Below, in pieces: positions 526 to 64,000 of a DNA stretch of 64,000 nucleotides; position 1 is the stretch's first letter, and each line of letters opens with the position of its first letter. The notes under the pieces were generated by a model, which was not told the DNA's origin, made no database searches, and was given only the letters and a program-made list of their open reading frames with translations. This DNA comes from Phoronis australis (taxonomy: Eukaryota > Animalia > Phoronida). The position numbers and the translations under genes are program-made. The DNA lies in assembly GCA_002633005.1 (NCBI GenBank), contig NMRA01000016.1:1717766-1781765 (forward strand). Reading direction: 5' to 3'.

Positions 526-3500
526 GGCCATCACATGGTATCGTGCGATGACAAACGGAAAAACTCGCCTTTGCCAATTGTACGGACTATGGTCGATGTT
601 TGTTGATTTCAGAGTACCTAGAACCCGGCTGAGTGAGGTGTCTATTAGAGGCTTAACAGTATTTTGGGTTCATATTAAGTTCCTCGTTGTCCACGTATAA
701 TCCTTAAGCTTAGACGTATGGGTGTTGTACTGTTGACTGAGGTCGTTTTCGGCATTTCATGATGCAACTTCACTGAAATCTTAGATTCAACGTCAAGTTG
801 TTAAGTGAATATTTACAACTTAAAAATAAACTTTAAGTGCTGAACTCAGCTAAAGTATGTTGGCCATCAGGTCGCTGTTGACTGGAAGAAGACTTCCGCG
901 ATGTCCTTTAGTGTTCAGTTGCAATTGTTTTGTACACATGAAAAGTGGCTTGCACAAAGAAAGCGTTTGTAGCAATTAAGAGTCACGTCTAACTTTCTGG
1001 GATTTTTCACTCAAATATTGCTTAAACAGTGTCTGATGAGCTAGCTTTGGGTTCTAACCAGTTCATGCGAGGATTTTCGATGGTTGTTGATCCAAGTTAT
1101 ACCAATGCTTTCTAACTGAACGACAATTTTTACTTAATTAAGGGATGGGTCCAGCTACGTTGAAGTTAAGGAAAAAGTTAAGGAAAGCCTTAGCTAGATA
1201 AAGGAAACATTCGTGACTTGAGGAAAATTTTAATTTTTCTGAATATAAAGATAAACAAGGAAATTAACAAGAGATGAGGAAAACAACACAACTCAGGAAA
1301 AACTCAAAGTACATCCTCTGGTCTTTAGTTTGATTTGATTTGAAATTGAAACCGCCAGACGGCCATTTGGGCTTGATCTCCTTCGCGACTGAAACAGATT
1401 CGCAGTGACAAGCAATTTAATTGGGCATGTCTCAATGCTGGTAGTTCTCTAAAAGAATAGAAGTCAAAATAATCGTAGTACAAGGCACACTTTAAGCTGA
1501 GATCGATTTGATACCTGAATGTGACCTAATTGAAAATTGGTTTTTGGCAGAGGGCCTGAGTTTATCGTCGCTTTAATTTGCCAAACGCTACAATCAATAA
1601 CGTCAAGAGCCCAGGGCAATGATAGCGAAGTATTACAATAAAAACCTGTGTTACATCCTCTATACATATCTAGTGAAAACGTATGTACAGGAATCTGTAA
1701 CAGACGAGAATAAAAGGGAAAACTATTTGGGTCCACCAAAGAAGTTCAAAATTGTCAAACTTTGGCTTGCGGTTGTCATTAATTTCGATCTGCCAATGTC
1801 ACCATAGATCACCAGCACCAGAAAAGGTATCGCTTTCGCAACAGTTTCTCACACCCGGCACCACCCAAGCGTTGCAAATTAGGGGGAAAGGGGTGGAGTG
1901 CACGTGCCTCCCAGCTGCCTACGGTCCTGTATAATAACATTCCTTTGTTCAAAGTCTAGTTGTAGAACGTGACGTCATTGTAATTTTAACTTTGCTCAAT
2001 ACTCCAATTTGATTACAATACTTATCTCGTGATAAGAAATATCGTCACACGATTCTAAATCTCTACCGTCAGCAGCGACGATTTCGACTTTACATCGCGT
2101 AACAATTTTCCCAAATTTACAATGTAATTCCGCTGCCATATATTGAACGCTTCATACAGATTATGCATTTCGCTATCAAACTACAATTGATGAAGTTCAA
2201 ACGTTTCTTCGAGCAAAACTGGTCAAGAAAATTGATCATGGCAATTGCTTGAATTAGTTTAATTTTAAACAAATTGGTTTTTAAAAATGAATGTGTTGGG
2301 AGTCAGTTGACGATTAATGACAGAATTCGTTTTACATTAATTTTCATTAAACTTTCAGGGTATAGTTGACCCGTTTGAGGTCAACGGCATAGTTTTCTGC
2401 GGAGCGACAGCCTGTTCCAGGCGGAGAATATCAGAATTAATACCCAATCTTGTTACACGACCAAACGATGTTCTTTTGGCGGGTTATCCTAAGTGCGGCA
2501 ACCATTGGATGAAATACATTCTGGCCCTGATGCATTCCGAAGACGACTTCGACAAGGTTAATCAGTCATTTATTGGCGAACAGGTCGAATTTTTGGAGGT
2601 CGTCAGTTCTCGCAATGGCGAGAGTGACGATGATGCGATTGCGCGTTGGGAGGCATCAACGAAACCGCGTCTGTGGAACACCCATCTTCCATGGAATATG
2701 CTGCCGTCTAGCGTTCACGAGGGAAAGTGCAAAGTTATCCTCATGCTTCGAAATCCAAAGGACTTGTTAGTAAGCTATTATAATTTCCACAAATCATTTG
2801 TTTTGCTTGGTTGCTACCAAGGTACATTTTCGGATTTCCTTGATGTTTTTTTTAGTGATAAGGGTCTGGCTTTTGGCAACTATTTTGATTTGTACAAAAG
2901 TTATTGGAAACATCAATCAAACGAAAACATTCTTACTGTACATTTCGAAGACCTTTTAAAAGATTTGCGAGGTCAAATCAAACGAATAGCGGAATTTTTA
3001 GGGAGAAACCTGTCCGGAGATCAAATTGACAAAATTTCTAAGATGACGTCCTTTGCCGAAATGAAGAAGAGTGGTGCTATGGCATTGTGGGAAAATATGC
3101 CCGAGCAGTACCTCATCAAAGAAGTGTCACCGTTCATGAGAAAGGGTGTGAAAGGTGACTGGAAAAACGTGTTCACAGTTGCTGATAACGAGAGATTTGA
3201 CAAGGAATATAAGTCAAAAATGGCGGACATTAATATTGAAACAAGACATTGACATAAGTATTGTAGACGCTGACGGTTCATTAAAAAGACTGCATGTTAA
3301 TAGTCAATACTAGAAGAGAACTGGTGCGCATGAGTAGTTCAGTGCTGTCGTACATACAGTTTTCAAAATGTTTCGGTGTATTCAAGAGATTGCATTTTAG
3401 ATGAAATTTAGACACGTGGTGTAAACAGCATACAAACAATTAGTTGATATCAAGTACAAGCTAATAATTAACAGTCTATTATAAAAGTGCTTACAGCTGT

Positions 3501-7713: not shown

Positions 7714-10700
7714 TGTTATATTTTGGATGGTTATAAGAGACACTAGATAAACACAGATTGACTAGGAAAAGTATATGTGTGTTTTTTTCCAATATGGCTC
7801 AGACCGGAAGAAAAGGGAGAGAGCTCTCTAGTTCAGGAAATAGAGTATATAAAATGATAGTCCATAGACACTGGTAGAGTCCACCGAGGACGGTTTAATA
7901 CAATGACATCCCCCTTTCTGTAAAAGCTTTGACCATAGTCGTCGGATGGATATCAGGTGAAAATAGTCCACTGGCTGAAATAGTTTATAGCTACACATAA
8001 GTTTTGTTTATTGATTAGAATACATGTATGTCATGACTAACTAATGATACATAAATGATGCATTATCTACAAATAACTAACTGCCTGGACAGTGAGTGGA
8101 CTATCACTGCCTCTACAATCATACAAGGATTATTCTGCCTTATTGTATGATGTAGCTGGAAGAACAGTACTAAATAGCTAAATATGTAAATCTTACAGTC
8201 CAGCGTAGCTGGTGGTCGACTGGCACGACCAGATTGTGTCACGTAGACTCTTGGTTGGGTAGTTGGGTTTCTTTTGCTTGAAAGCTGAAGCTGAGGCTGA
8301 GGCTCTTTGTTGATAACAGGTTTGTCTGTAGACACGAGATGATTTGATGTAGTTGGTGGAGATTGAGCTCTTTCACGTATGGTTGGACAGGGCTCAATGA
8401 CCTTTGTTGTGGGTTTCTCTACAGTGGGTGCGTTATGGCGCGGTCTTAGATGAAAACGATTTCTACGAAAGAAACGATTTGTTCGGCTACATTGGATAGA
8501 GTATGATCTTGGCTCTGAGTACCGTGTGGAATAGTCTGATATGAGAAGGTATTCGCAGCCGTGGAGTTGAAACAAATCACCACTGAGTGTGTGCCACGGA
8601 ACATTTGATACGTCTTGGCTGATTGATTCGAAGGGCTACTTCGATTGAGATCACTGATATTGTTGGCAGGTTTGACAACTACAAACTAAGATGGTTATGT
8701 CGTCGGAAATCCCACAACAGAAAACAAGGTCTTTGGCAAGCTGTTGACACCGTGTGATGCCTTGATGTCCTTCAAGAATTTTGCCAGATGAATTTGTTGA
8801 TGACGCGTTTCCCATTCAGGCTCAGTTCGTATCTGAAAACTCCAGTATGGCCGGAGACTTGCTGGGAGTTCTCTCATGTTACTTGATAAACCGGTACTTA
8901 TGATCTCCCTCAACAATGAAAGTTGGACATCTTTTTGTGTCTTGGAACGAATTACATTCAGTCGCTCAGATGAGAACTGAACAAAACAGACTTGTATGTC
9001 GACGTGGATTTCACGATCCGTGGATGTCTTTGGTAGACGCGACAGGCTGTCAGCTAATAACATTTCTTTATTTAATGGTATAATCATGCCTCTGTAGTCG
9101 TAGAAGACGTTGGGGACAAGATGGGGATGCAGACAGGGTTTTCTTCGTGTTTACTTCTAGGGGCTTGCAATCAGACTCCAAAGTAAACGGACTTCCATAT
9201 ATGTATGCGTGGAATCGTTTGGCATCAAAAACACATGCTAACAATTCGCGCTCAATGTTAGCATATCACTGTTCAGTTGGTGTTACGCTTTTGAAGGCAA
9301 AGGCTATCGGCTTCTGAGGGCAGCTCCCAAGGATGTCTGTGACGCATCGACTTGGATTGTAGTTGGTTCTTTTGGATTGAAATATCGTAAGCTACTAGCA
9401 CGTTGGATGATAGACTTCACTTTGTCAAAAACCTGTTGGTGTTCTGGGCACCGCTGATAATCGGCATCTCTTCCAGGAGCTGTCGTAGTGGTCCTGATGT
9501 GTTGCCCATCATAGGAACATATGGTGCCAAGTACGTAACCGTTCCAAGAAAGAACTGTAGTTCAGTGACGTTGGAAGGTTCTTTGAGTTCGAATGATGCT
9601 TGTACCTTCTTGGGGTCTGGTCGAACACCATCTTTGGAGTAAATGTTTCCGAAGGTGAATGAGCTTTCAGGAATCTTGATCATGCCCTTCCTTGGATTGA
9701 ACACAAGGCCCATCTTGCGAGCTCTATGCATCAGCGCATGAAGATTGTCGTTGTGCTCTTGACCATTGATGCCAAATACTGTGGTGACGTCCACTATAGA
9801 TATGAAGCTCTGTAAACCTGTAAGTATTTCGTCCATGGCTGCTTGAAACTGATCTTGGCTTGTTCGCAATCCAAACGGAAGTCGATGGAAACAAAACCGG
9901 GCTGTTAAATGTGGTAAGGAGCTGGCTCTCTGCATCGAGTTGGACAGAGCAGTACCCGGACTTGTCGTCGAACTTGGAAAACACAGTTGCGCTTAGGAAT
10001 TTGTGCGTTGTTTCTTCCAAGGTAGGAATATAATGCTGTCACTGTTTTAAAGTTAATGTCAAGTCCTTGGGGTCAAGACATATACGCAAACTGCCATCTG
10101 ATTTTTGGATGTATGTGATGCTAGATACCCAGTCAGTGGGCTCATCTATCTTCCGGATGACACCGAGGGTCTCCATCTGGTTTGACTCTGTCTTGATTTT
10201 ATCTCTTAGCTGAACACGCACTCGTCTGGGTTGGTGTTTCACAGGTCAATGAGGGTAAGTTTACATGGTTTTGCAAACTTACCTATTCCGTCAAATCTTT
10301 CAGGGTAGCACCGTCTGAGGTTTTCGTTACTGTTAATGATGTGTCTTGGTGGAACCGAACAATTGACTGTGATGTGGCCAAGGGTTTGGCACAACTTTTT
10401 ACGTCAGTTACTAACAAATCTAAGCATTTTTTGGCACACGCTTGTCAATATGAGTGACCCCCGGGTCGACATTCGACCATTGGACTCTCGAACAACCGGG
10501 CATGCATATTATCTTTCGCAGGCTGCTTGTGTTTTTTTAGCCGTGACTCGTTGATAAACAGCCATTTGGTGTAGAAGCGTGTGGGAACTAGTGCAGCGTT
10601 TCTTATCGTCACCAATACTTCGTCGTTACAGGTATGTTGGCTTTCGTTAGGTGCACTCGTTATTAGTATGTAAATTTGTGTCACACTTGTTTCACTGTTT

Positions 10701-11730: not shown

Positions 11731-14700
11731 GGCCATCACATGGTATCGTACGAGGACGAACGGAAAAATCGTATTTGCCAATCGTCCACCCTATGGTCAT
11801 CAGGGTCTCCTATTAGAGACGATGTTTATTGATTTCAGCTCACCTAGACCCCGGCAGAGTGAGTTGTGTATTATAGAGACCTGGCTTCTATTAGAATCAA
11901 GCTTAACTGTATTGTGGTTCTTAGTTGTCCTTAAATCTATGGGTCTTGCATTGTAGACAGACTGGGTTGTTTTCAGCATGTTATAATGCAACTTGACCTA
12001 AATCTTAGATTAGGGGAAGTGCAACGTCAAGTTGTTAAGTGGATTTTACTATTTCAAAAATAAACTTGAAGTATTGAGCTCGGGATAAGTGTGACGGCGA
12101 TCACGTTGCTGTTGACTGACGTAAGACTTCCGTAATCGCTTGCCGTGTTCACTTGTAATTGTTTTGTACACGTGAAAAGTGGCTTAAGCGAAAAAAAACA
12201 TGGGTCGTGATTCGAGTCACGTCTAACTTTTCAACACGGATTTTTCACTCAAACATTTACTTGAACAATGTCTGATGAGCTAGTTTTGGGTTCTAACCAG
12301 CTCATACACTGTACGTGGATTCGATGTATGTTGATCCAAAATGTACCCATGCATTGTGATTGAACGACAACTTTTGCTGATACGCCACCGTTCGGTCACT
12401 GTTGTGAGATTTTCATCAAACATTAAGGGAGGTGTCGAGCTCCCTTGAAGTTAAGGAAAAGTTAAGGAAAGCCTTAGCTAAATAAATGAATCTTCCGTGA
12501 CTTGAGGAAAAACTTAAGATTTTTCTAAAGATAAGAATAACTTAAGGAATTTGTCAAAATATGAGAAAATCACCACAACTCAGGGAGTTTGTTACCGCGT
12601 TAGCATGCCAAGCGCTACTATCAATAACTTCAAGCCCTGGGCAGTAAAAATAAAATGCTGCATTAAACACCTGTCTTACATCTCCTGTCCAATTAGAATG
12701 TACATGTATATACAGACATGTGTAACATACACGTAAGAAAGGGAAAGTATTTGGAGCCACCAAGAAGTTTAAAGTCGTCAAACTTTGGCTGCGGTTGTCA
12801 CTAATTTTGACCCGCCAATGTGACCGTAGATCCCCAGTCCCAGAAAAGGCATCACTTTCACACCCACGTTGCCACCAAGTTCACGCACCCGGCATCACCC
12901 AAGCGTTGCGAATTAAGGAGGGGGGGGGGGGTTGTGCACGTGCCTCCCAGATCCCAACGGTCCCGCATATCAATATTCATTTAATCAATTCTAGTTGTAG
13001 AACGTGACGTCGTTGTAATTTCAACACTGTTCACACTCTTATTTATTTACAATGCTTATCTCGTGAAGAGTTAAGCGCCATGATAAGAAATATTGTCACA
13101 CGATTCTCGCTCACTACCGTCAGTAGCGACGATTTCGACTTAATATCGTGTAACAATTTTCTCAAATTTACAATGTAATTCCATTGCGATGTATTGAACA
13201 CTTCATGCATTTTACGCACTTGGCTATCAAACTACAATTGATAAAATTGAAAACTTTTTTCGAGCGAAACCGGAAAAGAAAGTTGACCATGGCGATTGCT
13301 TGAATTAATAATTTTTAACAAAGTGTTTTTTGAAAACGAATGTGTAGGGATTCAGTTGACGGTTGATGACAGAAATTATTTTACGTTAATTTTAATTAAA
13401 CTTTCAGGGTATAGTTGACCCGTTTGAGGTCAACGGCATAGTTTTCTGCGGAGCGACGTCCTGTTCCAGGCGGAGAGTGTCGGAATTAATACCCAACCTT
13501 GCAACGCGACCAAACGATGTTCTTTTGGCGGGTTATCCCAAGTGCGGCAACCATTGGATGAAATACATTCTGGCCCTGATGCATTCCGAAGACGACTTCG
13601 ACAAGGTTAACCAGTCATTTATTGGCGAACAGGTGGAGTTTTTGGAGGTCGTCAGTCCTCGCAATGGCGAGAGTGACGATGATGCGTTTGCGCGTTGGGA
13701 GGCATCAACGAAACCGCGTCTGTGGAACACCCATCTTCCATGGAATATGCTGCCGTCTAGCGTTCACGAGGGAAAGTGCAAAGTTATCCTCATGCTCCGA
13801 AATCCAAAGGACTTGGTAGTAAGCTATTATAATTTCCACAAATCATTTGTTTTGCTTGGTTGCTACCAAGGTACATTTACGGATTTCCTTAATGTTTTCT
13901 TTAGTGATAAGGGTCTGGTTTTTGGCAACTATTTTGATTTGTACAAAAGTTATTTGAAACATCAATCAAATGAGAACATGCTCATTGTACATTTCGAAGA
14001 CCTTTTAAAAGACTTGCGAGGCGAAATCAAACGACTAGCGGATTTTTTAGGGAGAAACTTGTCCGGAGATCAAATTGACAAAATTTCTAAGATGACGTCC
14101 TTTGTCGAAATGAAGAAAAGTGGTGCCATGGCGTTGTGGGAAAATATGCCCGAGCAGTACCTCAACCGGCAAGTGTCGCCGTTCATGAGAAAGGGTGTGA
14201 AAGGTGACTGGAAAACTGTGTTCACAGTTGCTGATAACGAGAGATTTGACAAGGAATATAAGTCAAAAATGGCGGATATTAACATTGAAACAAGACATTG
14301 ACATAAGTATTGTAGACGCTGACTGCTCATTCAGAAGACTGCATGATAATAGTCATTATACTGGAAGTGAACAGGTGCGTACGAGCATGCAGTCCAGTAC
14401 TGTTGTACATGCCATTTTCAAAATGTTTCGGTGTATTCAAGAGATTGTATTTTAGGTGAAAATTAGACTCATGGTGCAAACAGCATAGATGGTTTCCTCC
14501 GCTGGACACGCCTTTACTTCAAAAACGCACACTCAGGGGTCTCAGTTCGAAGAGAATGCCGCATCAGTGTCGATAACGCAAAACAATGTCACCATTGCCC
14601 TCCTTGGTTCTGCCAAGGACGAAATGTCTAAAATAAAACAGTGGTTATCTTATTTTTGCATACAAGCTGTATAACAAAGCTAACAGTGCCAATCGGGCTA

Positions 14701-18814: not shown

Positions 18815-21800
18815 TCACTGAATCAAAAATGTACCGAAAAAGCTATTTTCCGGGGAAAGGTTATACTTCGTATGTGGCGTGAGTGGTCTCACGTAGAGTC
18901 TGTCTCCAAACTTTAAATAGAAAACACCAGCGTGATAATTCGAGTCCTGAGGTTCGGCGCCTCGCCTACAAAAAGAAACAAGGAGTTTAATTTGAATAAT
19001 CACGGTGTTTGGGGACAAGAATTTTTGTGCAAATTTAATGTCTCAAAACTCGTCCAACATTAACGCGACTGTAATCCCTCCTTCTGTAACAAACATGTGC
19101 TTTTGACATAGATCATTCACCGCTACGGAATTGGTCTAAAGTTCTACTCTTATTTATTCAAGAAATAAGCAATTTTTGGTGTTGAAAAGAATTGACAGTT
19201 TGCCATTGCTTGAGACCAGGCACTACAAGTTGTCTTATCACGACCTGTCAGTTTATTCTCCGAGCGCNNNNNNNNNNNNNNNNNNNNNNNNNNNNNNNNN
19301 NNNNNNNNNNNNNNNNNNNNNNNNNNNNNNNNNNNNNNNNNNNNNNNNNNNNNNNNNNNNNNNNNNNNNNNNNNNNNNNNNNNNNNNNNNNNNNNNNNNN
19401 NNNNNNNNNNNNNNNNNNNNNNNNNNNNNNNNNNNNNNNNNNNNNNNNNNNNNNNNNNNNNNNNNNNNNNNNNNNNNNNNNNNNNNNNNNNNNNNNNNNN
19501 NNNNNNNNNNNNNNNNNNNNNNNNNNNNNNNNNNNNNNNNNNNNNNNNNNNNNNNNNNNNNNNNNNNNNNNNNNNNNNNNNNNNNNNNNNNNNNNNNNNN
19601 NNNNNNNNNNNNNNNNNNNNNNNNNNNNNNNNNNNNNNNNNNNNNNNNNNNNNNNNNNNNNNNNNNNNNNNNNNNNNNNNNNNNNNNNNNNNNNNNNNNN
19701 NNNNNNNNNNNNNNNNNNNNNNNNNNNNNNNNNNNNNNNNNNNNNNNNNNNNNNNNNNNNNNNNNNNNNNNNNNNNNNNNNNNNNNNNNNNNNNNNNNNN
19801 NNNNNNNNNNNNNNNNNNNNNNNNNNNNNNNNNNNNNNNNNNNNNNNNNNNNNNNNNNNNNNNNNNNNNNNNNNNNNNNNNNNNNNNNNNNNNNNNNNNN
19901 NNNNNNNNNNNNNNNNNNNNNNNNNNNNNNNNNNNNNNNNNNNNNNNNNNNNNNNNNNNNNNNNNNNNNNNNNNNNNNNNNNNNNNNNNNNNNNNNNNNN
20001 NNNNNNNNNNNNNNNNNNNNNNNNNNNNNNNNNAGAAATACTAGAGAGGCGCCGTGAACAAGCTCTGACAACGGAACGTATGGAGTTATTTGGTAAGCCG
20101 GCATTCGTCAGGCACTGTCGACGTCTGCAGGCCACAGACACGGAGATGTTTCACGGCCTCATACTTGCTATTTACAGCGTACATTTCATTCTTCACTACC
20201 ATGAGCCACTTCCTAAGCAGTTCGGACTCTCGAGGAAGTAAAAAACGATATGCCCGCTTTCCTCGCAGCTGCTTCGTTCGGACAAGCGGGAACGATGCAC
20301 CGCAACAAAGCGGCATTCTCTCTGCATATGAACCACTGACGTCGCTAGCGTCGTTTCTCACATTCCTCACAGGTTAACGCGACACCTCTTGGCAACGTAA
20401 GGTCGACCGTATGCGAGGCGATGTGGATATAGACCGATTAAGACGACAAAAAAGACTAATTAAATCGGGTGGCATTCTCCTTTAAGGGATACTTAGCCCT
20501 ATACTAGGTATTTCACACCAAACCAATCTCTCGTTCAGTAACGCTAGGACCTCGCTAAAAAGCAAGACTTCGTGAGATTACGTGATATATGACCGTGTAT
20601 TTCAAATGAGAACACTTGATGATTTTAGCTAGGTCCTAGCATGGGTCCTAGCGTTACTGAACGCACGCCAGTCTTCCTTTCCGTAGAAGTGAAAATTTAG
20701 CGAACACGCCAGACTGGAAGATATCACCATGTATCACAAACGAAGCAGGTGCTCACAATAGGTTCCTCAGCGATGTCCTTGCGAAACTATGTTCAGTTTT
20801 GCCACGCGCTGTCGTACAAACAGCCTGGGCGACAAAATTGTTCAGTATAAGGCTAGAATTCTCACAAACCACATTGGTTCTATATTGTTCTTCCAGTCAT
20901 GTTTTGTTGTAGCCAATTATCTATCGCAAACTGTTAGTCAGGCTTGCCCTTCTTAATAAAACGTTTCAAACTTGTTATTATTTTTGAGGAGTTAATAAGT
21001 TGAAGAGGGATACACGGGATTGGATTGTTGCAAGGATTGACGGGATTTACTTTTTAATGGCATAAAACAGGATTCAGTGAAAGTTACGTGAATTCAGGCA
21101 AGCGTACATGTAATAACTTTTGTTGCAATCATCGGTGATTTTAAATTACAGTTTTATGGGTTCATAATTGACACTTTGCCTCTCGATTTCGCTAGATATC
21201 TTATTAAAACACACTGCGTTTCAAAATAAAATTTTACCAGACAACAACTCAACAGGTAGAAAGACAGATTACGGGCAAGTGAACGCGTGCTAGACTATCC
21301 ATTTTCGTGACAGCAGGTGATTTTTGGTTTCGAATCCATTCAGTTTGTTCTAGTAAAGGACCAATAAAGTGTATGCACACATCCTTCATGACCTGTCATA
21401 AATAAGGAGATTTTGTATGTTTTGTCCAGCATCGAAACTGCAACCATCACAAGGTCATGAATTAATGGTATTACCACTTGAAGGTTTCGCTAGATGCGTG
21501 CATACACAGAAAAAAATAGCCAGACTGACTCTCAACATATTTTTAGGAAGTGTGCCAAAGTAAGCGTTGTTCATACCCAAGGTGAGGGTTTAAGCACTCC
21601 TTGGTTGAATAATGTCTTGATCCGTAGAAGTTGGTTGTTAACGGATGCGGAAACCAGCGTGCCTTCAAAAACTTCTGGTTGGTGTGTCCTCCACTAAGAG
21701 GAAACCTCTTCTTTACCACACGTATGCTCAATAACATTGTAAAGAGGAACTTGCACGCTAATTCATTATCTCTGTGACTGCTTGGTCAACTTAGTTAGAA

Positions 21801-46300: not shown

Positions 46301-49300
46301 ATTACTCGTCGTCTAAACAGCTCCAATACAAGTCCACAATAAACTCATCAAACTTAGGTTCACCGATCTGTTCACTGGATGACGAACTGTCCTTTTCACT
46401 GGGTGTCAACCTGGGCCTGTATTCACTCCCACTACTCAAAATCAGGGCTACTTACAGGTTCTGGAATGCAGACAACAGCACACGGGGAATCACTGCTAGT
46501 TCCTGGAATTGCAAGCTATGGGGGTACGTTCGGAAGCATGGGTGACAGTAGATGAAGTGCCTCCAGTCACTGTTTATAGTAGCTACAGCTCGCGAGGCTT
46601 CTCGCTTCAAAAACGCACTTCTTGGGGTGGCGACGGGGCACTGCCGGGAATCAACAGTGACGTTATGGAACGCTTCTTCAGGCGTTGTTTCGCAGGGACC
46701 TTCATCAATTCAGCGTACATATCTCTGTCGTAATCTGACAGCTTTCTACTTCTTTGTACGTTGCGTGAACGGATAGCGCTGCGTTCTTCACACGAACGAG
46801 CTAGCCAAGTACGGCGAAGTGTGTCACCCTTCGGAAAGCGATGCAAGGTACCCAAAGCGCATGTGAGACGATAATGAGTACATCCTGGTACGCAACAACA
46901 GCGTGGCATGTTGATTGACTCGTAAGCAAAAGCAAACGACGACCGAACATATCACATCCGAGGTAGAACAATGACCGACTCGACTGCTCTCATAGTCAGA
47001 CTGTATGAAAAGAAATTGGCGCGAAATTCTTGCCTCCCAAAACGTCACTTCCGGAGTAGAGGACGAGAAATGAATTAAATTACGAAAACCTGTAATTGAG
47101 TGAAAAATATGTCTGGGATAATCAACAGACCTTATTTTTGCTAAAAGTGACATGAAAAAAGGTTGCCTTCGCCTTTAAGGACAAAAGTTAAAACGATACA
47201 AATTTTCTTGCGAATCAAATTCACTCAACATCATGTGTCGATTGTTTATAAATTTTGTGACACGTCACAAAAAGAGTCTTGGAATAAAATATTCTTGTTT
47301 TCTATAAATATTCTAGTAGGAGCGCAAAAATTCATGAAACGTTCGTTACCATGTAAAATTCTTTTGTATTGTGACTCTGGACCACTCCCAATATGGACGA
47401 GGAGGTGCGAGACTGGTACGTAAGCGCCTGTAAGAACAAAAACATACATTTTCACTAATAATGCGACAAAGGCTTGAATAAGCAAAAACTGCGAAGACGT
47501 CGGATGAATTTTATACCAAAACAAATGTATCTCACGATTCATGGTTAAAACACATTCCGTAAAGCAGTCTCCCGTTTTAATGATAGTGCTTCTTGCCAAG
47601 GAAGTGTATAGCATCTACGTGTAAATGATTAGTTATCTTGAAATTTTAAAGTCAAAAGACAAATGCCAGTTTTCAAATCTCCCATCTTGTGACGTCTTGA
47701 GTGGAAAAAGCTTTACGATGCAAACAAGATTAATGCACTACCCAGTGGAGGATTTGGGGGGGGGGGGGCAAGGGGGCCATGACCCCCTAAATTTAATTGT
47801 CCAGATACCATTTGACAGTTCGGGGTGCGAATTGCTGACTAGCATATGCTCGCATCCAGGGGGTCTCGGGGAGGGGGAATGCACAATGCATAGGCCTTGA
47901 ACGAACACCGTTTACCGGTTTTTTTAGTAATAAGGTCCACAAACCCAAAAATTTAAGACCCCTGCATCCCTACATTTTAGGCTGGGCGCGCGCATGTAGC
48001 GAAATTCTGATTATTCCTGTGTCCTGTCCCCCAACTCAAAATCCTGGATCCGCCCCATTACCGATCAAAGTGAAAACTGCAGACAACTGGTGTTCTGTCG
48101 CCTTGCGTACGATATGGGAGACATGGCTANTATAGCCTCCACTTTTTTCAGCGTTACGCCGCCCATGACCGTACAAACCTCATTGTCGTGCTTGCTCACC
48201 GAGGAGTCTGCTCCTACTGTGTGGAGATCAATGAGTCGATTAGTGGTGGTTTAACGGATAAAATACTGGCTTAAATAAATTGATACAGCTGTACAATAAT
48301 TAAATTCCTCAACGTAAATTTGTAATCATTTCTACCCGAAGAATTACGATAAGAAATAGCCAAACCAGATTCATTAGTTTTCTATCCTCTGGTACCAGTT
48401 AATGATGGTTTTAGCTCTTTCAATCCTTATGAATAATCGGCCGGCAAATAGTGACATCACATAGAAGACTGCGGGAACGCTTAGCAATGGACAAGATATC
48501 TTGACTAAGCCTCGATTAAGAAACCACTGTCGTCAGAGCTGAAACCAACCGAGAGGTTTCTGTAATGCATATTTTGTTGATAACCATCTCCAGACGCCAT
48601 AATACAATACCCGGATCTTGGTATTATATTGTAAAACCAAAATCTTGATATTATAATATAACACCAAAATCCTGATATTAAAACATCATGATCTTGATAT
48701 TATATGACATCAATATCACAGGCAGAAATTCAAAATTTTAACATACGTATGCTATTGGCGATAAATCTCAAGATTTGCTATTAATATAATGTTCATTATC
48801 AGCACAAGCGATATACAGTTTAGGCATCTGCAGAAGCAGTCAAACTTGTTGACCTTTTTGACATTTTGAAGGAGAAAATGAAGAATTTCTGAAAACAGCC
48901 GGGACTGGGTGACCTTGATGTGATTTTCGAGGTTTCGTATAAATGGTTATGCAAGATGAAATTTCGAAAACGCTGTTTCAGTTTTCTAAATTATCATTTT
49001 TTTCGAAAAGATCATAAAAGTCCCACTTTTGACAGGTCCTCATGAAAAGTGAAACATTTCAAAAAACGCCCTAACAACCGATAGGAGAGAAGTGAATGTT
49101 TCTCATGAATACGACCAGCCTGGATTTTCTGAGACATGATGAAATGTCCGATTCTAGCCAAATTTGGATATGTAGATTGTGCTGTTTGCACACAGCGTTG
49201 GCTGTGAAAATGGATTTTGGACTCTGCCACGTGTTAGTGCAACACGATGGACACAATAGTCACCACCATCCGTCCGTCCGTCCGTCCGTCCGTCCGTCCG

Positions 49301-57074: not shown

Positions 57075-57429
57075 ACACAGACACACTCATGTTAATAAAG
57101 AATATACAGAACAACTCGAACACTTTTTACATTTCCAGGTCAACGTCCTTTGATAACAACAAGCGTAGAGCGTAGATAAAGTACAACGTATGATAAAGAC
57201 ATTTAAAATACAAGATAGAGATTGTAAACACGGTAACCGATTACACTATTTACAATATACACAGTCACATGTTCTTCAATCGGTGTCAGTCAAGGCATTT
57301 ACAAAGAATCAAACTCATTAGTACGTATAGACCTTTCTACATGCCAATGAAAGCCCAATGCTATTCCTTATGTGCCATTCATTGATTACCCGACTTGTCT
57401 CCATTGAGGTGCTGGGAACATCTCGGCAG

Positions 57430-57848
57430 AGTTCAGTTGCTATCTCGCGGCAAGAAAAATCTAGCCAAAACCACGCGTGTTCTCATTTTAAATACACATC
57501 AATATCTCACGTAATCTCGCGAAGTCTTCATAGCATTATATTGTCGTGATAGACCCTATGGAGTTGGCGAACACGGAACTCTGTACTGCCAGAAAACCGC
57601 AAGTCCTTCCGTTCCATGACTCTTTATTGTACTTCAATCTGACAGCATTAGGATAAGAGCTGCCTGAAGAATTTTAATCTTAAAAGATGCTGGATTTCAC
57701 TTTCCGCCCTTTTCGTGAAAGGAAACAGATCCAGTGGTAATAGTGTGTCCAGCGTATACTCCCTCAAGCCCCTAAGTTCGCTTCACAGTCAGAATAGCGC
57801 TTACTGATTTTTAGCAAGGTCCTAGCGTACCTAATAGCCTTACTGAAC
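57430..57848. mobile_element. ~150-bp MITE family copy 4, split by a ~280-bp insertion
   Basis: The family sequence stops at gcgaagtctt (57528) and resumes at g.tttttagc.aggtcctagcgt (57806). Confidence 0.7.
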
Positions 57849-57989
57849 TCTACCCCGGATATCTCAATGGTGTTCAGTACTACTGGTGAGAAGTCAGATG
57901 CCTTTACTGCAGATGGGGAATGGAATAATCTATACACCAGCTACAGGAATAATACGGCGGCTCACACGGATGAACATAGCTGTTCAATT

Positions 57990-58515
57990 ACAGTACACAG
58001 GCCGTTCAACTCGATCAGTTCACTCGTACTCTTAAACCGTTGCCCGGATTCACAAAACAGGGCTTGCGTCCGCGCACCCAGAAAACACGGATCTCAGGCT
58101 CACATCAACTATAGAACACGAGTGACGGACTGGAAACACGGCTCTAGTACTTATAAACGCGGCTCGCAGATTCTTTGCCGGCGTCGCTGCTCACCCAATA
58201 GTCCACCAGATGTGTGACCGTGTGAATAGTGCAGACAGCTTCGCGGAGAATCAAGATCGCCAAACCAAATTTTGCTATTGATTTCACAACAGAGAAACAA
58301 TTTTTAATTACCTTCATTTTATAATATTTGATTAGTAAAAGACGAAGTTAATGATACCACGTTACAGTGAAATATGTTTAGAAAGTAGACATTTTGTCTA
58401 CTAAGAGCCGTATTTGCAATCTGTGGGCCGTGTTTCAGTGTTAGTGGGTGCGAGTCCATGAGCCGTACTTTTCGAGTGATCAAGCCGTGTTCTGCAAGTC
58501 CGTGAGCTGCGTACA
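57990..58515. mobile_element. Degenerate foldback element with AACACGGCTC-like subrepeats
   Basis: Repeated aacacgg(a/c)tc motifs on the left arm are mirrored by gagccgt(g/a)ttt motifs on the right arm. Confidence 0.5.
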
Positions 58516-58794
58516 CAAACGAAGAACTTATTGTGTGAGCAGTGTTGTTCGGTTAGCCTGACACGTCACTGTGATTGTATTATGGGGCTGTCGCAAACCC
58601 ATTCAACAATTCCCCACCTTGTCCTACTAAATAATAGTCTACACTTTTGCTTATTGAAAACTCGGAATAGCTTTAGAATTGCATTCCATTTTTCATATTA
58701 TTCGAAAATTTAGAATGTGAGCGATGTTTGAAACTGAAGATTTCCCAGTCAGTCGCAGTCATTTTTGTCTTTTTACGCGAAACTGTGATGCGTT

Positions 58795-59061
58795 TTACGG
58801 TGAAAGCCGAATAAGTCCGAAAAATGTGCGATCTTTCTCGAAGTATATTTGAGCCGAGGGGAAGTAATGGGATACGACGATGACGTCGTCAGCTTGAAAC
58901 CGATGGAGGGCGCCCCCGACACATGTCTCAGAAGTATCCCCATCCTTTTCAAAATCGCTAAACACACACGTAACAAGGTCCAATAAAACTTCACCACCTC
59001 CTTTCGCTTTCTTGATCTTCACAAACATTGCGTTGGAGTCCATGTCGTTGAAAAACACCAC
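58795..59061 (-). CDS. Terminal exon encoding the C-terminal part of an Eiger/EDA-like TNF domain (exon C)
   Basis: Acceptor tatcgttgcag|GTG (phase 0). VVFFNDMDSNAMFVKI...LVTCVFS...SETCVGGALHRFQADDVIVV...IYFEKDRTFFGLIRLSP*. The Cys pair in strands E and F and the TFFGLIRL ending are typical of the EF-disulfide TNF class. Confidence 0.82.
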   Translation of the reverse strand: MVFFNDMDSNAMFVKIKKAKGGGEVLLDLVTCVFSDFEKDGDTSETCVGGALHRFQADDVIVVSHYFPSAQIYFEKDRTFFGLIRLSP

Positions 59062-60208
59062 CTGCAACGATACACGTCGACGGAGTCTGAAAAGTTAACT
59101 CAAGTTCTTTTTAAAACTTAGCTGATCCATACAGTTCTCGGTTCTACATTTGTGGTTTGATTCAGCGGCAGGTGCGGGAAAAAATTACCAAACCATTGAA
59201 GAGTTGGAATGCAGAAAATTGCAGTTCAAACGTACTGACAACAGTAAAATCAGCCCCCCGAGACGACGGACTTTATGTAGACCTATGTTTGTTGTTTTAC
59301 TGCAACAATATTTGCTGAAGTGGCGTGTGAAGATGATTTTTTCTTTGGCGTGCCCAACACGGTGCTAGCCATACGACCGGGCGCACATAACCTTCGACAA
59401 AAGGGGCCCCGAAACATGATAGTCTGCTCATTTATGACGATTGGTTGTTTGGCACGTCTGAAGTCAATTCATTTAACAAAAACATGTAATAATGGTCGAC
59501 AAGGACAACAGAGATAGAGAGAGGATCGAGGGAGGATGGGAGCGAGGGGAGAGGGAGGGATCAGTGAGGGAGGGAGGAGAGAGTGAGGGGGAGAGAGAGT
59601 CTATAGGGGTTCGGAACACCTTGCTAAGTCACTTAAGCCACCTCCTCATTACTGTCAGGTTAACTTTCTATTATTACGGTGGATATCCACGTGACATTCC
59701 CGATGGGGCATTTGGCTTTGTCAATAGCTATACATTCGAGTTTTATATCGTAACACGATCTTCTGAAGCAATGCGAAGAGTTGCTATTCAAAATGCAGTG
59801 TCGGGAAGCAATCGTTTATTGTTGTGTTTTTTCGTGCAGTCTAATTCGCTCAGTGCATCCAGACCACCTCGGATATGTTCCCAAGTCTCAACTTTCTTCT
59901 CGAAGTGAACGTTATCTGCACATCCCACGAAATTTGTAACATGTAGTGTGCATGAGCAAAACTTTGCCAGCAGCTCCCCGGCATCGGAAAGAACAATCGC
60001 TAGCAATGTAAAAGTTAAGGGGATAACTACTCAAGTTGTCAATAGCATGTATAGACTATAGTACACTGTATATGGACCGCCAACTCCGTAACTATACTTT
60101 CAATGGACGAAATCTGTGCAACAACGTCATATTCACTAGCGACACCTGGCCAAGTTATCTGGTGTTATTTCCGGCAAGCACAACGTCTGCTAATCACGGT
60201 CGCAGAAT

Positions 60209-60801
60209 GGTGAATGTTGGCCAAATCTCCTTTTGTCCCCTGACGTCACAAGCATACTGGCGCCCCCAGTGGAGGCCCTGAGAACTCGTAAATAAACCGA
60301 GTTCATGAACCCGGTAGTTTCTAGCCTAGCAACGGCCGAGCCAGGCTGGCGAACAGACTTGTATTTATTGTAGGACGTTGAGTATCGTTTTTTTTCTAAA
60401 AACATAATGCATGGTATATAATAATGAATGGTATATAGCATCAATTAATTATGATTGAAAGATTCCTTTTTAGTCGAGCATAAATAAGGCTATTTCGCGT
60501 GGGGATAAAACTTTGGCTCTGCCGTGTGTAACACAGAAGAACATTTGGATGGTGTTGCAGGATTGCGAGAATGAATATTCCAATTTTGTTAATTTATTGG
60601 AACAATATTAATTTTCTGAAAGGTATGACATGCAACATTATTCAAAAAACACACTAAAACATAGCGACTCTAGAAAAATCATACAGAATACTTTAATCAC
60701 AGTCGCCAGCATGCTTGTTTACGAGTTCTCAGGGCCTCCACTGGGGGCGCCAGTATGCTTGTGACGTCAGTGGACAAATGGGGATTTGGCCAACATTCAC
60801 C
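60209..60801. mobile_element. MITE / foldback with ~85-bp near-perfect inverted arms
   Basis: ggtgaatgttggccaaat...tgacgtcacaagcatactggcgcccccagtggaggccctgagaactcgtaaa is mirrored at 60718-60801. Confidence 0.85.
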
Positions 60802-63036
60802 GGCTGTTGTGTGGTCACAATACACTAACCGGAAACTGGGACAGATAATTTAGGAGAGTGGCGGCTCCTCTAGGATATTACACAAGAAAATGTCGGAGTT
60901 GCGAATCTGTTGTCTATAATCCATGGTTGCTCAGAGTACGTTAGGATTGCCAAACATCAGCGCTATTGGTGACGTTAATCTTAAGGTTTGAAATTTGCCC
61001 AATCCAGGCTTATGTAAACGGTTTGAGCGCACAACTAGTGTTAAAGTTCATTTCGCCTCGGGATAGAATTTGCCGATAGTTTGCCGACGGGCAAAGTTTG
61101 CTGATCTCAATTGCTTGTGACTTTCTGAAAAATTGTCCACATTTCTTGTGCTCAGGAAATGATTCAACGCACCGAGTTACCGATCGCCTTCTTGGCTTGG
61201 AATGGAATTTGCATTGTGTTGTAGAGAGATTAGCTCACAAACGGAAAGAAACAGTGATGTATCCATTTTTGTAATCTAGGATGAACCTAGATGGTGAAAA
61301 CTTTCAAAGTTGGCGAAACGCTGGATTTTAAACAGAATTCTACACGTTTCCGCGGCCTGCAGGTAGACGATTTAGCAACAAGAAAGTTCCTGTGATTTAA
61401 CCTACAAATTATACCCCCGAAAACAGCAGTTATTTGTTTCCCCCATTGAATGTTTCCAATTGTTATTCTGATGCATAGACGGCCAAAGATCATGGCTTCA
61501 CGCAAATACGTCTCAAAAGTCGTCGGAATGCGACGTCTTTCTACATCCTCATTATGTACTGAATAAATCTTGTTCAGCCTGTTATCACAGGGTTATCATA
61601 CCAGCGCACTCGTCGACATGCTACGCACATGCGCAGATAACATTCAACCCCAGGGCATTTGAAACGAATTCGGCAAATTTCGTAGCCTCAAACTTCCCCT
61701 CGGAGGTGAACGTTATCTGGCCATGTTCGGATTTTAGTCGTGAGGTAAGCCGTGTGTTTTTCAAACTGGAAAGTGATTGACCGAACACGTATGTGTCTAA
61801 ATTTAGCACATGAGCATGTGTAACGCTCACTGACAGACGTATAATTTGACGGTACGAAATTACTGAAAGCATCCATGTTAAAGCTGGAACAGGCGAAACG
61901 CAACGCTATGTAGACGTACCAAGTGTCGTGTACACGAAGAAAACACCTTTTGAAGAACGATAATAACACACATATATTTGTTTACATAAATAACAGTTCA
62001 GCATTCGTAGGCCTATGTGCATGCACAAGTATATAACAAATAACATCAGAATAAAAATATATTTCAAGCCCCGAGGTTTGTTTCCACAAACGGGACAGGA
62101 ACTTTAAGCTGCATTTCCCCTTGTTGTTTAACAACCAACGTTGAATTCTTAACCGAAGCGCATTGGGGTTTAAAACATCACACTTGTCCGATCTTGATTT
62201 ATTGACAAAAGAGCCGGCAGCACAAGCCACAGGAAATATGTACATGCACTATTTTCCGTTAGCAACTTGAGCACACGCCAATTTGAGTACAAAACACAGA
62301 AGCCTATTTCTTCAATCGCCGATGACCACGACTTTCTTATACATAACGGAAATAGAACCCTATTGCGGAAAGGAATATTACGACTAATTCAAATATTAAA
62401 GGTTAAAGATATTTAAGTAGAAGAAAATGAACATCCAAGGTCTTTTGTAGTATGATATTCTAACATGAATGACAATGAGTTTCTGGTTGTGATGAATTAA
62501 TTAGCAGAAAGCAGACAAGTACAATGTATTGTGGAACTTTGTTGAAATCACATTATCGGAGGGAAAAGTGGTTTTCCGAGATCAACCCCAACGCGCTTAA
62601 AAACCTGGAACCTTTGCGATATAAACCAAATGCTATCTGTGGTGACAGACCTAATCGTATTAACTGGCAGTCAACTGGCGGTTTGTAATAAAAACACAAA
62701 ACCACAACGGCTTTTATTGTTTTACAGCCCTGGTCAAAGTTAGTACCTTCAAAAAGTAGAGCAATATTTACAAAAATAAGTTTATGGCCGTGAAAATGAG
62801 AAAGTTTTTTACTTTCAATACTCTGTGGTAAGGAGACGGTCAGTGCTACATTCTGCAAGTGTGAGCCATGCCAGCTTATACAAAAATAGGCAAATTGGTT
62901 TGCTGAATGTTACACAAGTATAAGCCCATTGGAACTTCACGCACAAGTTTAGCACTGAATAGTCCAAAACGTATAGCGCAGAAAGAGAAGTTCAGAGCTG
63001 ATATATCACAGAGAGGCTCCGCCCGGATCCCGATGG

Positions 63037-63312
63037 TTATGCCAAGCGAACGAGTCCAATGAATGCTCGGTCTTTCGTCCAGTACGTGACAGCACCTTTG
63101 TTTGCCTCGACAACTTGTACCTCATCCCCAGCTTCTAAGCGTGTAAGTCCGCCACCGAAGCACGTGTGAGCTTGAAGGACCTCTTCAGGACTCTTATCGA
63201 TCGGAACGGGTGCGTTGCTATGGGAACATGATATAAACCTGCCCTGCGCTTTTCCTTTCACCGTTATTTGAACGTACATAGTGTTTGATGACTCGGAGTT
63301 GTAAAACGAAAT
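63037..63312 (-). CDS. Terminal exon encoding the C-terminal part of an Eiger/EDA-like TNF domain (exon D); upstream exons presumably beyond 64000
   Basis: Acceptor tccgttttacag|ATT (phase 0). ISFYNSESSNTMYVQI...FISCSHS...AHTCFGGGLTRLEAGDEVQV...YWTKDRAFIGLVRLA*. Clearly homologous to exon C. Confidence 0.82.
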   Translation of the reverse strand: MSFYNSESSNTMYVQITVKGKAQGRFISCSHSNAPVPIDKSPEEVLQAHTCFGGGLTRLEAGDEVQVVEANKGAVTYWTKDRAFIGLVRLA

Positions 63313-64000
63313 CTGTAAAACGGACATGAACTAAAAATTCCGTCACTGAAAAGACTAGGTAGTTCAAGTGCTGCTCAACAGTCTTGTTCGGTGTTACTTC
63401 CGAGGAAGCAATCTATTTTGCGGGTTGTACTTCGTCAACTACCTGTCTCTTGATAAACGGCCTTTTAACTGAAGACGGCAAATTGATTACAAAGCTGGAC
63501 GTGACCATCTGGTCGAGAAACGACAGAAAACCCCATGAGCTCTAAGAGGTAATCGGATCAAATTTAAGATGGTACTGTGCCACTGAAAATAAACGCCTGT
63601 CCCATTGTCTAGCCATTACTTACCTGTAGCAGGTTTGTCCCAATTTCACTCTCGTCACTAAAATGCTACCACCATGTTCGTTTTCTTAAGAATGTAACAT
63701 TAATACGGTGGTTAATAGCTCACCCATTGACATGGACCACAGGGTATGTTTTTTATTGAAAAGGCCTGAAAAGTGACACAATCCCGACATCCAGTCAATC
63801 AAAAGTTTGGTATTTAAACACGGCAGAAGTGACATGGGTCATTCGTAACCTGGTTAATTACTGTACATTGTTGACAATGTGTAACACAGGATAGATGAAA
63901 TTGCGCTTAAGTCATTAAGTCACACACGTTATTTACAAAGGATCAAAGCCATAAGTCATATACGCAGCTCTTGTCCTGGAGTTTTCTCGTTCCAGATAAA

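What the first reader, a model, noticed from the sequence alone, without database searches (positions are those of the whole stretch)
58795..63312. Two tandem Eiger/EDA-type TNF-domain terminal exons with no visible gene body between them: candidate alternative last exons that swap the receptor-binding surface
Seen: two homologous but strongly diverged intact exons on the same strand, about 4 kb apart. Each starts at a good phase-0 acceptor just after the expected Y-x-Q of strand C and encodes the rest of the domain to a stop. Each has downstream minus-strand AATAAA motifs (e.g. ~62714, ~57623). Scanning 59062-63036 by eye, I found no TM exon, no strand-A exon and no GxYxVYxQ|GT exon to serve exon C. 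Known: the D-E loop and other surfaces in strands C-H contribute to TNF receptor specificity, and EDA-A1/A2 switch receptors by a small splice change. Inference: one upstream gene body beyond 64000 may splice to either exon, giving ligands with a shared N-terminus and different receptor-binding halves, or heterotrimers. This would be a modular TNF diversification mechanism.
Basis: partly seen in the sequence, partly recalled or inferred. Interest (0 to 1): 0.8.

Follow-up and report, generated by a model that had tools for sequence, protein, structure and literature searches.

The report
TNF cytokine with two swappable ends
RNA reads show that one invertebrate TNF-family cytokine gene splices the same upstream exon onto either of two very different last exons, which likely gives two signalling proteins predicted to differ in most of their receptor-contact surface, a much larger version of the small splice change that switches receptors in human ectodysplasin.

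Summary
Exons D (63312-63037) and C (59061-58795), minus strand, are intact, homologous (33 of 83 aligned residues identical) C-terminal halves of an Eiger/EDA/BAFF-type TNF domain, each with the E-F cysteine pair. Both are transcribed. Reads leaving each acceptor carry the same 30 upstream letters (K-E-G-G-L-Y-W-V-Y-A, then Q): 95 reads at D and 13 at C in run X4, 4 at C in X2. That sequence is absent from the window, so the shared gene body most likely lies beyond 64000. D has its own poly(A) site at 61948. Five of six allelic differences in exon C are silent, so the minor exon looks constrained. By analogy to the Eiger-Grindelwald structure most receptor contacts fall in the swapped half; in EDA-EDAR a main patch falls in the shared half. 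Different receptor use is therefore inferred, not shown. Alternative homologous last exons are a known mechanism. Six searches found no paper on it in a TNF ligand, and the human catalogue lists none. An unreviewed note of this scan reports the same swap in acorn worms, so it is probably not unique.

The parts
63037..63312 (-). Proximal last exon D, coding part: end of strand C to strand H of a TNF domain, 91 aa plus stop; Cys29 and Cys51; major form
   Evidence: 95 junction reads in X4 and an X1 contig that leaves the window sequence at 63315
61948..63036 (-). 3' UTR of isoform D, ending at a poly(A) site at about 61948-61951
   Evidence: minus-strand RNA depth 90-102 in X4 over 62194-63101; X1 contig with a 19-letter non-templated tail at 61948
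61973..61978 (-). Non-canonical poly(A) signal AATATA about 25 nt before D's poly(A) site (inferred to be weak)
   Evidence: only one of 13 known hexamers found in 62000-61940
63313..63360 (-). Acceptor of exon D (pyrimidine tract, ends in TTTTACAG)
   Evidence: used in RNA
63313..64000 (-). 3' part of the intron that follows the shared exon; the shared exon (ends K-E-G-G-L-Y-W-V-Y-A-Q) and the rest of the gene are inferred to lie beyond 64000
   Evidence: loose ends; 0 matches in the window
59062..61947 (-). Spacer between the two last exons; repeats only, no exon found
   Evidence: depth 0 in all four runs at 59470-59923; reads at 59924-61058 lie on both strands
59062..59110 (-). Acceptor of exon C (ends in TTGCAG)
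   Evidence: depth 0 at 59084-59119 in all four runs and loose ends at 59064
58795..59061 (-). Distal last exon C, coding part: 88 aa plus stop; Cys32 and Cys47; minor form
   Evidence: 13 junction reads in X4 and 4 in X2; 5 of 6 alleles synonymous
57200..58794 (-). 3' UTR of isoform C (extends at least to 57200; end not mapped)
   Evidence: X1 contig of 1849 letters over 57200-59039 and minus-strand raw reads

Best explanation
RNA reads join the same upstream exon end to either of two homologous last exons of an Eiger/EDA-type TNF ligand, so one gene likely makes two proteins that share their front part and are predicted to differ in most receptor-contact loops and hence in receptor preference. 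Shown: both exons are transcribed, spliced in phase 0 to identical upstream letters, and each carries a stop. D ends at its own poly(A) site, so a mature transcript holds one or the other. Inferred: the shared body (membrane anchor, stalk, strands A to C) lies beyond 64000 as one gene. Choice works by competition between cleavage at D's non-canonical AATATA site and skipping of D to the distal acceptor; D is the default (C is 13 of 108 junction reads in X4). The swap replaces the CD, DE, EF and GH loops and strands D-H, changing receptor affinity or identity while keeping the fold. Split confidence: one gene with two alternative last exons 0.92; both give folded, functional ligands 0.8; they differ in receptor preference 0.55.
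For: Identical 30-letter loose ends at 63315 (X4, 95 reads) and 59064 (X4, 13; X2, 4), agreement 1.0. No match in the window. Poly(A) tail at 61948. Both exons keep two cysteines; exon C has the same spacing as Drosophila Eiger (15 between, 41 after). PDB hits are BAFF/APRIL, Spodoptera Eiger and EDA. Five of 6 exon C alleles are synonymous, P=0.0025 against a 0.22 expectation. All Eiger residues named at the Grindelwald interface are numbered 333 or higher, at most 20 residues before the first cysteine, while the exons start 28 and 31 residues before it (PMC8024323 passages). Divergence between D and C is highest around the E-F region (2 of 12 identical in two blocks) and lowest in the last strand (7 of 12).
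Against: Only 30 upstream letters are displayed, so a single gene body is inferred, not seen. No genome was held and no DNA reads were laid. The C junction rests on 17 displayed reads from one study. Junction rows for D in X2 and X3, and for C in X3, were not among the rows shown. In EDA-EDAR the patch giving most electrostatic contacts (residues 256-273) lies upstream of strand C, in what would be the shared half (PMC9918506 passages). No receptor, protein or binding evidence exists for this animal. The allele test rests on six sites.
Confidence: 0.8

Rival explanations
1. Same gene architecture, but isoform C is a tuner or decoy: it binds the same receptor with another affinity, or joins D in mixed trimers and damps signalling, as deltaBAFF does for BAFF.
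For: C is the minor form (13 of 108 junction reads in X4). deltaBAFF and BAFF/APRIL heterotrimers are precedents (PMC3880999 passages). Shared strands A-C could keep a receptor patch constant, as in EDA-EDAR.
Against: C is a complete, constrained half-domain with Eiger-like cysteine spacing, not a deletion form. Strands F and H, which line the trimer core (recalled), are in the swapped half, so mixed trimers are not assured.
Confidence: 0.3
2. Two paralogous genes with near-identical front halves (recent duplication or gene conversion); the second body is interleaved beyond 64000 or was collapsed by the assembler, so C is the ordinary last exon of its own gene.
For: The window is a tandem TNF cluster with two more genes. 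Only 30 shared letters are seen. The assembly has gaps elsewhere.
Against: It needs 30 of 30 identical letters over ten codons upstream while the last exons have lost DNA similarity. There is no gap between D and C and no matching exon there.
Confidence: 0.06
3. Exon C is a decaying orphan duplicate, reached only by leaky read-through, with no function.
For: Low read depth (1.75 to 10 in the coding bin).
Against: An intact frame despite saturated divergence; 5 of 6 alleles silent; exact splicing in at least two runs; a long UTR seen in both studies.
Confidence: 0.04

Closest known systems
Vertebrate ectodysplasin A, splice forms EDA-A1 and EDA-A2 (PMC9918506; PDB 7x9g, 1rj7, 1rj8)
   Same: One TNF ligand gene, two splice forms that differ from strand C on; the same TNF subgroup (E-F disulfide). 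EDA-A1 and A2 bind EDAR and XEDAR. That the EDA splice point is the same intron after Y-x-Q is recalled, not tested.
   Different: EDA differs by two residues (Val307-Glu308). Here a whole duplicated exon of about 90 residues, 40% identical, is exchanged, with its own stop and 3' UTR. Receptors are unknown here.
Tandem exon duplication-derived C-terminal substitutions in human genes (PMC8373072: 77 of 236 events; GNAO1, MASP1, NECTIN2) and FGFR2 IIIb/IIIc
   Same: Homologous duplicated 3' coding exons chosen through alternative poly(A) use. In FGFR2 half of a binding domain is swapped and binding specificity changes.
   Different: No TNF ligand gene name was found in that catalogue (controls found). 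FGFR2 is a receptor and its swap is internal.
Drosophila PGRP-LC 3' variable region (PMC6191721, abstract and outline)
   Same: An immune protein whose recognition end is chosen among alternative 3' cassettes.
   Different: A receptor, not a ligand. It is controlled by competing RNA pairings, for which no convincing sign was found in the part of the locus available.
TWE-PRIL (TWEAK-APRIL read-through) and deltaBAFF (PMC3880999 passages)
   Same: Splicing changes the receptor-binding part or activity of a ligand of the same TNF subgroup.
   Different: TWE-PRIL joins two complete neighbouring genes and takes the APRIL receptor-binding domain; exon C has no gene body of its own. deltaBAFF is an inhibitory splice form, not a swap of homologous exons.
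Drosophila and Spodoptera Eiger (PMC8024323, PMC6684607; PDB 6i50)
   Same: E-F cysteine pair; exon C matches the Drosophila spacing exactly; 6i50 aligns over profile positions 13-95 (E 0.019).
   Different: No swap of this kind appeared in the passages read; orthology was not tested with a tree.

Membership tests
TNF ligand superfamily (PF00229) | TNF homology domain above the Pfam cut-off | tested here: inconclusive
   Half domains give 15.0 and 19.2 bits against a cut-off of 23; supported by PDB hits (4zch E 1e-8 summed over its repeats; single chains E about 0.02) and Atlas first hits TNF at 0.94 and 0.92
TNF ligand superfamily (PF00229) | Strand-C motif G-x-Y-x-x-Y-x-Q directly before the matched half | tested here: met
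   RNA loose ends read G-L-Y-W-V-Y-A-(Q) in frame with both exons (translated by hand); the same motif is seen in CD40L and TRAIL
TNF ligand superfamily (PF00229) | Type II membrane anchor, trimer formation, TNFR binding | not testable with these tools
   The front of the gene is outside the window; no genome held
Eiger/EDA/BAFF/APRIL/TWEAK subgroup | Cysteine pair in strands E and F | tested here: met
   Exactly two Cys in each exon, aligned to the pair of 6i50; feature as defined in PMC6684607
Eiger/EDA/BAFF/APRIL/TWEAK subgroup | Orthology to EDA or Eiger by phylogeny | not tested
   No homologous sequences were retrieved
Tandem exon duplication-derived C-terminal substitution | Homologous tandem 3' coding exons | tested here: met
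Tandem exon duplication-derived C-terminal substitution | Both exons spliced to the same upstream exon, one per transcript | tested here: met
   Identical 30-letter loose ends; no D-to-C joint among the joints shown (2 not shown)
Tandem exon duplication-derived C-terminal substitution | Separate poly(A) ends | tested here: inconclusive
   D end seen in one contig at 61948; C end lies outside the laid stretch
Tandem exon duplication-derived C-terminal substitution | Both isoforms translated | not testable with these tools
   Indirect only: synonymous excess in exon C
PGRP-LC-type control by competing RNA pairings | Docking site pairing with a selector at each cassette | tested here: inconclusive
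   No long pairing between 63313-64000 and both acceptors among the 25 longest of 55 inverted repeats; most of the upstream intron is missing and no relatives were available
TWE-PRIL-type intergenic read-through | Downstream partner is a complete gene | tested here: not met
   No body for exon C in 59062-63036

The most novel reading that the evidence does not exclude
The intron after strand C of EDA/Eiger-class TNF genes is an old bilaterian receptor switch. Invertebrates swap whole duplicated last exons there (this animal, and by an untested note acorn worms, a feather star and amphioxus), vertebrate EDA-A1/A2 is the two-residue form of the same switch, and co-expressed isoforms build mixed trimers with new composite receptor sites from a single gene.
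Probability: 0.22. Interest if true: 0.82.

Novelty: new variant of a known kind. Interest (0 to 1): 0.62.

Why it matters
In the papers read, invertebrate TNF diversity is treated as gene duplication or in-frame domain repeats (PMC12843592, bioRxiv 10.1101/2024.07.27.603686; neither main text contains 'splic' or 'isoform'). This locus shows a third route, supported by RNA: duplicate only the last exon and keep one promoter, anchor and stalk. Gene counts would miss such ligands. It gives a natural pair of chimeras for asking which half of the domain sets receptor choice. It also makes testable whether the EDA-A1/A2 switch has invertebrate counterparts at the same intron.

Tried and rejected
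No whole genome was held, so nothing beyond 64000 could be read. Homologue searches found no relatives: 0 of 207 candidates; 0 of 1263. One search gave 4 hits, all repeat proteins without a TNF match, and I dropped them. Conservation of the two-exon layout in related species is therefore untested. Metagenome scans found nothing (177 pattern matches, none confirmed; 0). The run search listed no RNA holder on record; the raw-read runs came by species label. A sulfotransferase search for the taxon gave only 32-41% identities across animals, so the clade is unresolved here. AlphaFold2 on exon D with a two-row alignment gave pLDDT 46.8: uninformative, no fold search run. No third last exon of this type: a profile of C and D over 2165 six-frame segments found only the two (next E 2.8). 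The strand A-C exons of the two neighbouring TNF genes are not the shared exon: they are downstream and differ in sequence. Inverted repeats gave no convincing docking/selector pair; the 87-nt arms at 60209-60801 look like a multi-copy element (reads on both strands). The D:C depth ratio differs between runs (1.8, 6.2, 9.4; rough Fisher P 0.03 for X2 against X4 on estimated fragment counts); this is too thin to claim regulation. No complex was predicted because the shared half and the receptors are not in hand. Supplements of the bioRxiv preprint were not seen and might hold relevant gene models.

Full report
OBSERVATION. Two minus-strand frames, 63312-63037 (exon D, 91 aa) and 59061-58795 (exon C, 88 aa), start after CAG acceptors and run to a stop. 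They align with 33 identities in 83 paired codons. The local score is 117 against a shuffle maximum of 42 in 2000, and blastn finds no significant DNA match, so the duplication is old. Pfam TNF matches both below its cut-off, as half domains. PDB searches return BAFF/APRIL, Spodoptera Eiger and EDA first, and the ESM Atlas ranks a TNF cluster first for each. Each exon has exactly two cysteines. They align to the strand E-F pair that PMC6684607 (passages) gives for Eiger, BAFF, APRIL, TWEAK and EDA. Exon C has 15 residues between them and 41 after, the same as Drosophila Eiger (Cys353, Cys368, end 409); exon D has a loop 7 residues longer.

NOTHING SERVES EXON C LOCALLY. None of 15 minus-strand Y/F-x-Q|GT sites lies in 59062-64000. 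There is no N gap between the exons. RNA depth between them is zero, near zero, or on both strands (repeats), apart from D's UTR. A hydropathy scan gave two stretches that score like real anchors, so it is not decisive alone.

RNA DECIDES. The run search gave one contig set (X1, RNA by guess) and three raw RNA-Seq runs of the same species label from one study (X2-X4); about a fifth of each raw run was read. On 57200-64000, both exons and their UTRs are covered from the minus strand: D 8.5, 10.9 and 93.6, C 4.8, 1.75 and 10.0 in X2, X3, X4. At D, 95 reads of X4 leave the window at 63315 with one 30-letter consensus (250 loose-end rows were not shown). On 58400-59450, 13 reads of X4 and 4 of X2 leave at 59064 with the same 30 letters, agreement 1.0; one row was not shown, and depth drops to zero in 59084-59119. 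Translated by hand, these letters read K-E-G-G-L-Y-W-V-Y-A. The three extra aligned bases (CAG) are read as the Gln codon that ends the upstream exon, in frame with both last exons. A 21-letter part has no match in the window at three mismatches. So both exons are joined to the same upstream exon end, most likely beyond 64000. An X1 contig carries a poly(A) tail at 61948, with AATATA at 61978; D transcripts therefore end before C. C's UTR reaches at least 57200.

IS THE MINOR EXON MAINTAINED? One search lists six alleles in C's coding part. Five are synonymous third-position changes and one is Gly to Val; with 22% of single changes silent, P is 0.0025. Six sites are few, but with an intact frame after saturated divergence this argues against a dead duplicate.

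MECHANISM. Shown: shared upstream letters, two acceptors, two stops, a poly(A) end for D. Inferred: competition between D's poly(A) site and skipping to C, the route that PMC8373072 (passages) describes for homologous C-terminal swaps. No docking/selector pairing of the PGRP-LC type stood out, but most of the intron is missing. Predicted effect: in the Eiger-Grindelwald complex the ligand residues named are Asn333, Asp337 or Asp377 (the paper prints both), Arg369, His388, Arg391, Arg396 and Arg401 (PMC8024323 passages). Those after Cys368 lie in the swapped exon by construction. Residues 333 and 337 are 20 and 16 before the first cysteine, and the exons begin 28 and 31 before it, so they probably do too. 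Against this, in EDA-EDAR the patch with most electrostatic contacts is at 256-273, before strand C, although A1/A2 specificity is set by residues 310-314 and loop EF, after it (PMC9918506 passages). A change of receptor is thus likely but not certain; a tuning or decoy role for C, like deltaBAFF (PMC3880999 passages), is the main rival.

CONTEXT. The exons head a tandem TNF cluster. Two more genes lie downstream on the same strand, with anchor, strand A-C and last exons, and a different intron layout and last-exon type. No third exon of the C/D type is in the window. No relatives were retrieved and the clade is unresolved; unreviewed notes on the same genome call it a likely mollusc, which I did not confirm.

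WHAT IS KNOWN. Alternative homologous last exons are a known mechanism: 77 of 236 human events are C-terminal, and Drosophila PGRP-LC and pip are examples (PMC6191721 abstract and outline; PMC9013439 passages). In the supplementary table of PMC8373072, no entry begins with TNF, TNFSF, EDA or C1QTNF, and none is LTA, LTB, FASLG, CD40LG or CD70, while four control genes were found. Six literature searches aimed at such a swap in a TNF ligand listed no paper describing one, judged from listings. Term look-ups in three TNF evolution papers found no 'splic' or 'isoform' (PMC7674686; bioRxiv 10.1101/2024.07.27.603686; PMC12843592). The preprint describes in-frame multi-domain ligands instead. The library lacks most subscription journals. 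One unreviewed note of this scan, e1-10597329, reports alternative last exons in acorn-worm EDA-like genes and says database models of other deuterostomes show the same. I could not test it. It lowers the claim of uniqueness and raises the chance of a general, overlooked feature.

VERDICT. Observation confirmed; architecture supported by junction reads (0.92); receptor switch inferred (0.55). New variant of a known kind. Interest 0.62.

Noticed in passing
window 52071-51793, 45908-45740 approx., 40502-40322 (minus): A second TNF gene (B): anchor exon, strand A-C exon (Pfam TNF E 1.9e-7, weak PDB hits TRAIL and CD40L) and last exon (E 7.8e-5). A middle exon for strands D-E was not located.
   Followed up: partly
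window 33792-33460, 26603-26337, 19042-18815 (minus): A third TNF gene (A) with the same layout as B (Pfam E 2.2e-5 and 1.6e-5); its middle exon was not located, and an N gap at 19268-20033 may hide part of it.
   Followed up: partly
window 63657-63624 (minus): A strong donor (CAG|GTAAGT at 63624/63623) with several possible acceptors 25-95 nt upstream; X4 shows depth 4 at 63556-63782. It could be a small cassette exon before D (34 nt would shift the frame; 27 or 42 nt would not). No joint was among those shown.
   Followed up: partly
window 2341-3252 and 13396-14301 (plus): Two intronless cytosolic sulfotransferase frames (PF00685, E 1.8e-67 for the first) in a 1.9-kb duplication at 86% identity; nearest database proteins are only 32-41% identical.
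   Followed up: partly
window 8063-10457 (minus): Broken retrotransposon-like pol fragments between the two sulfotransferase copies (recognised by eye from ORF translations).
   Followed up: no
window 60209-60801: 87-nt inverted arms, 95% complementary, 419 nt apart, with RNA reads on both strands: probably a multi-copy MITE-like element in the spacer between D and C.
   Followed up: partly
window 46607-46951 and 20086-20373 (minus): Short frames with a C-x-V-x-x-C ... H-x-F-P pattern that resemble THAP-domain transposon remnants (recalled motif, not searched).
   Followed up: no
window 58321-58464: The X1 contig lacks 144 bases of exon C's 3' UTR (ends not splice-like; not seen in X2-X4), probably an allelic deletion.
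   Followed up: no
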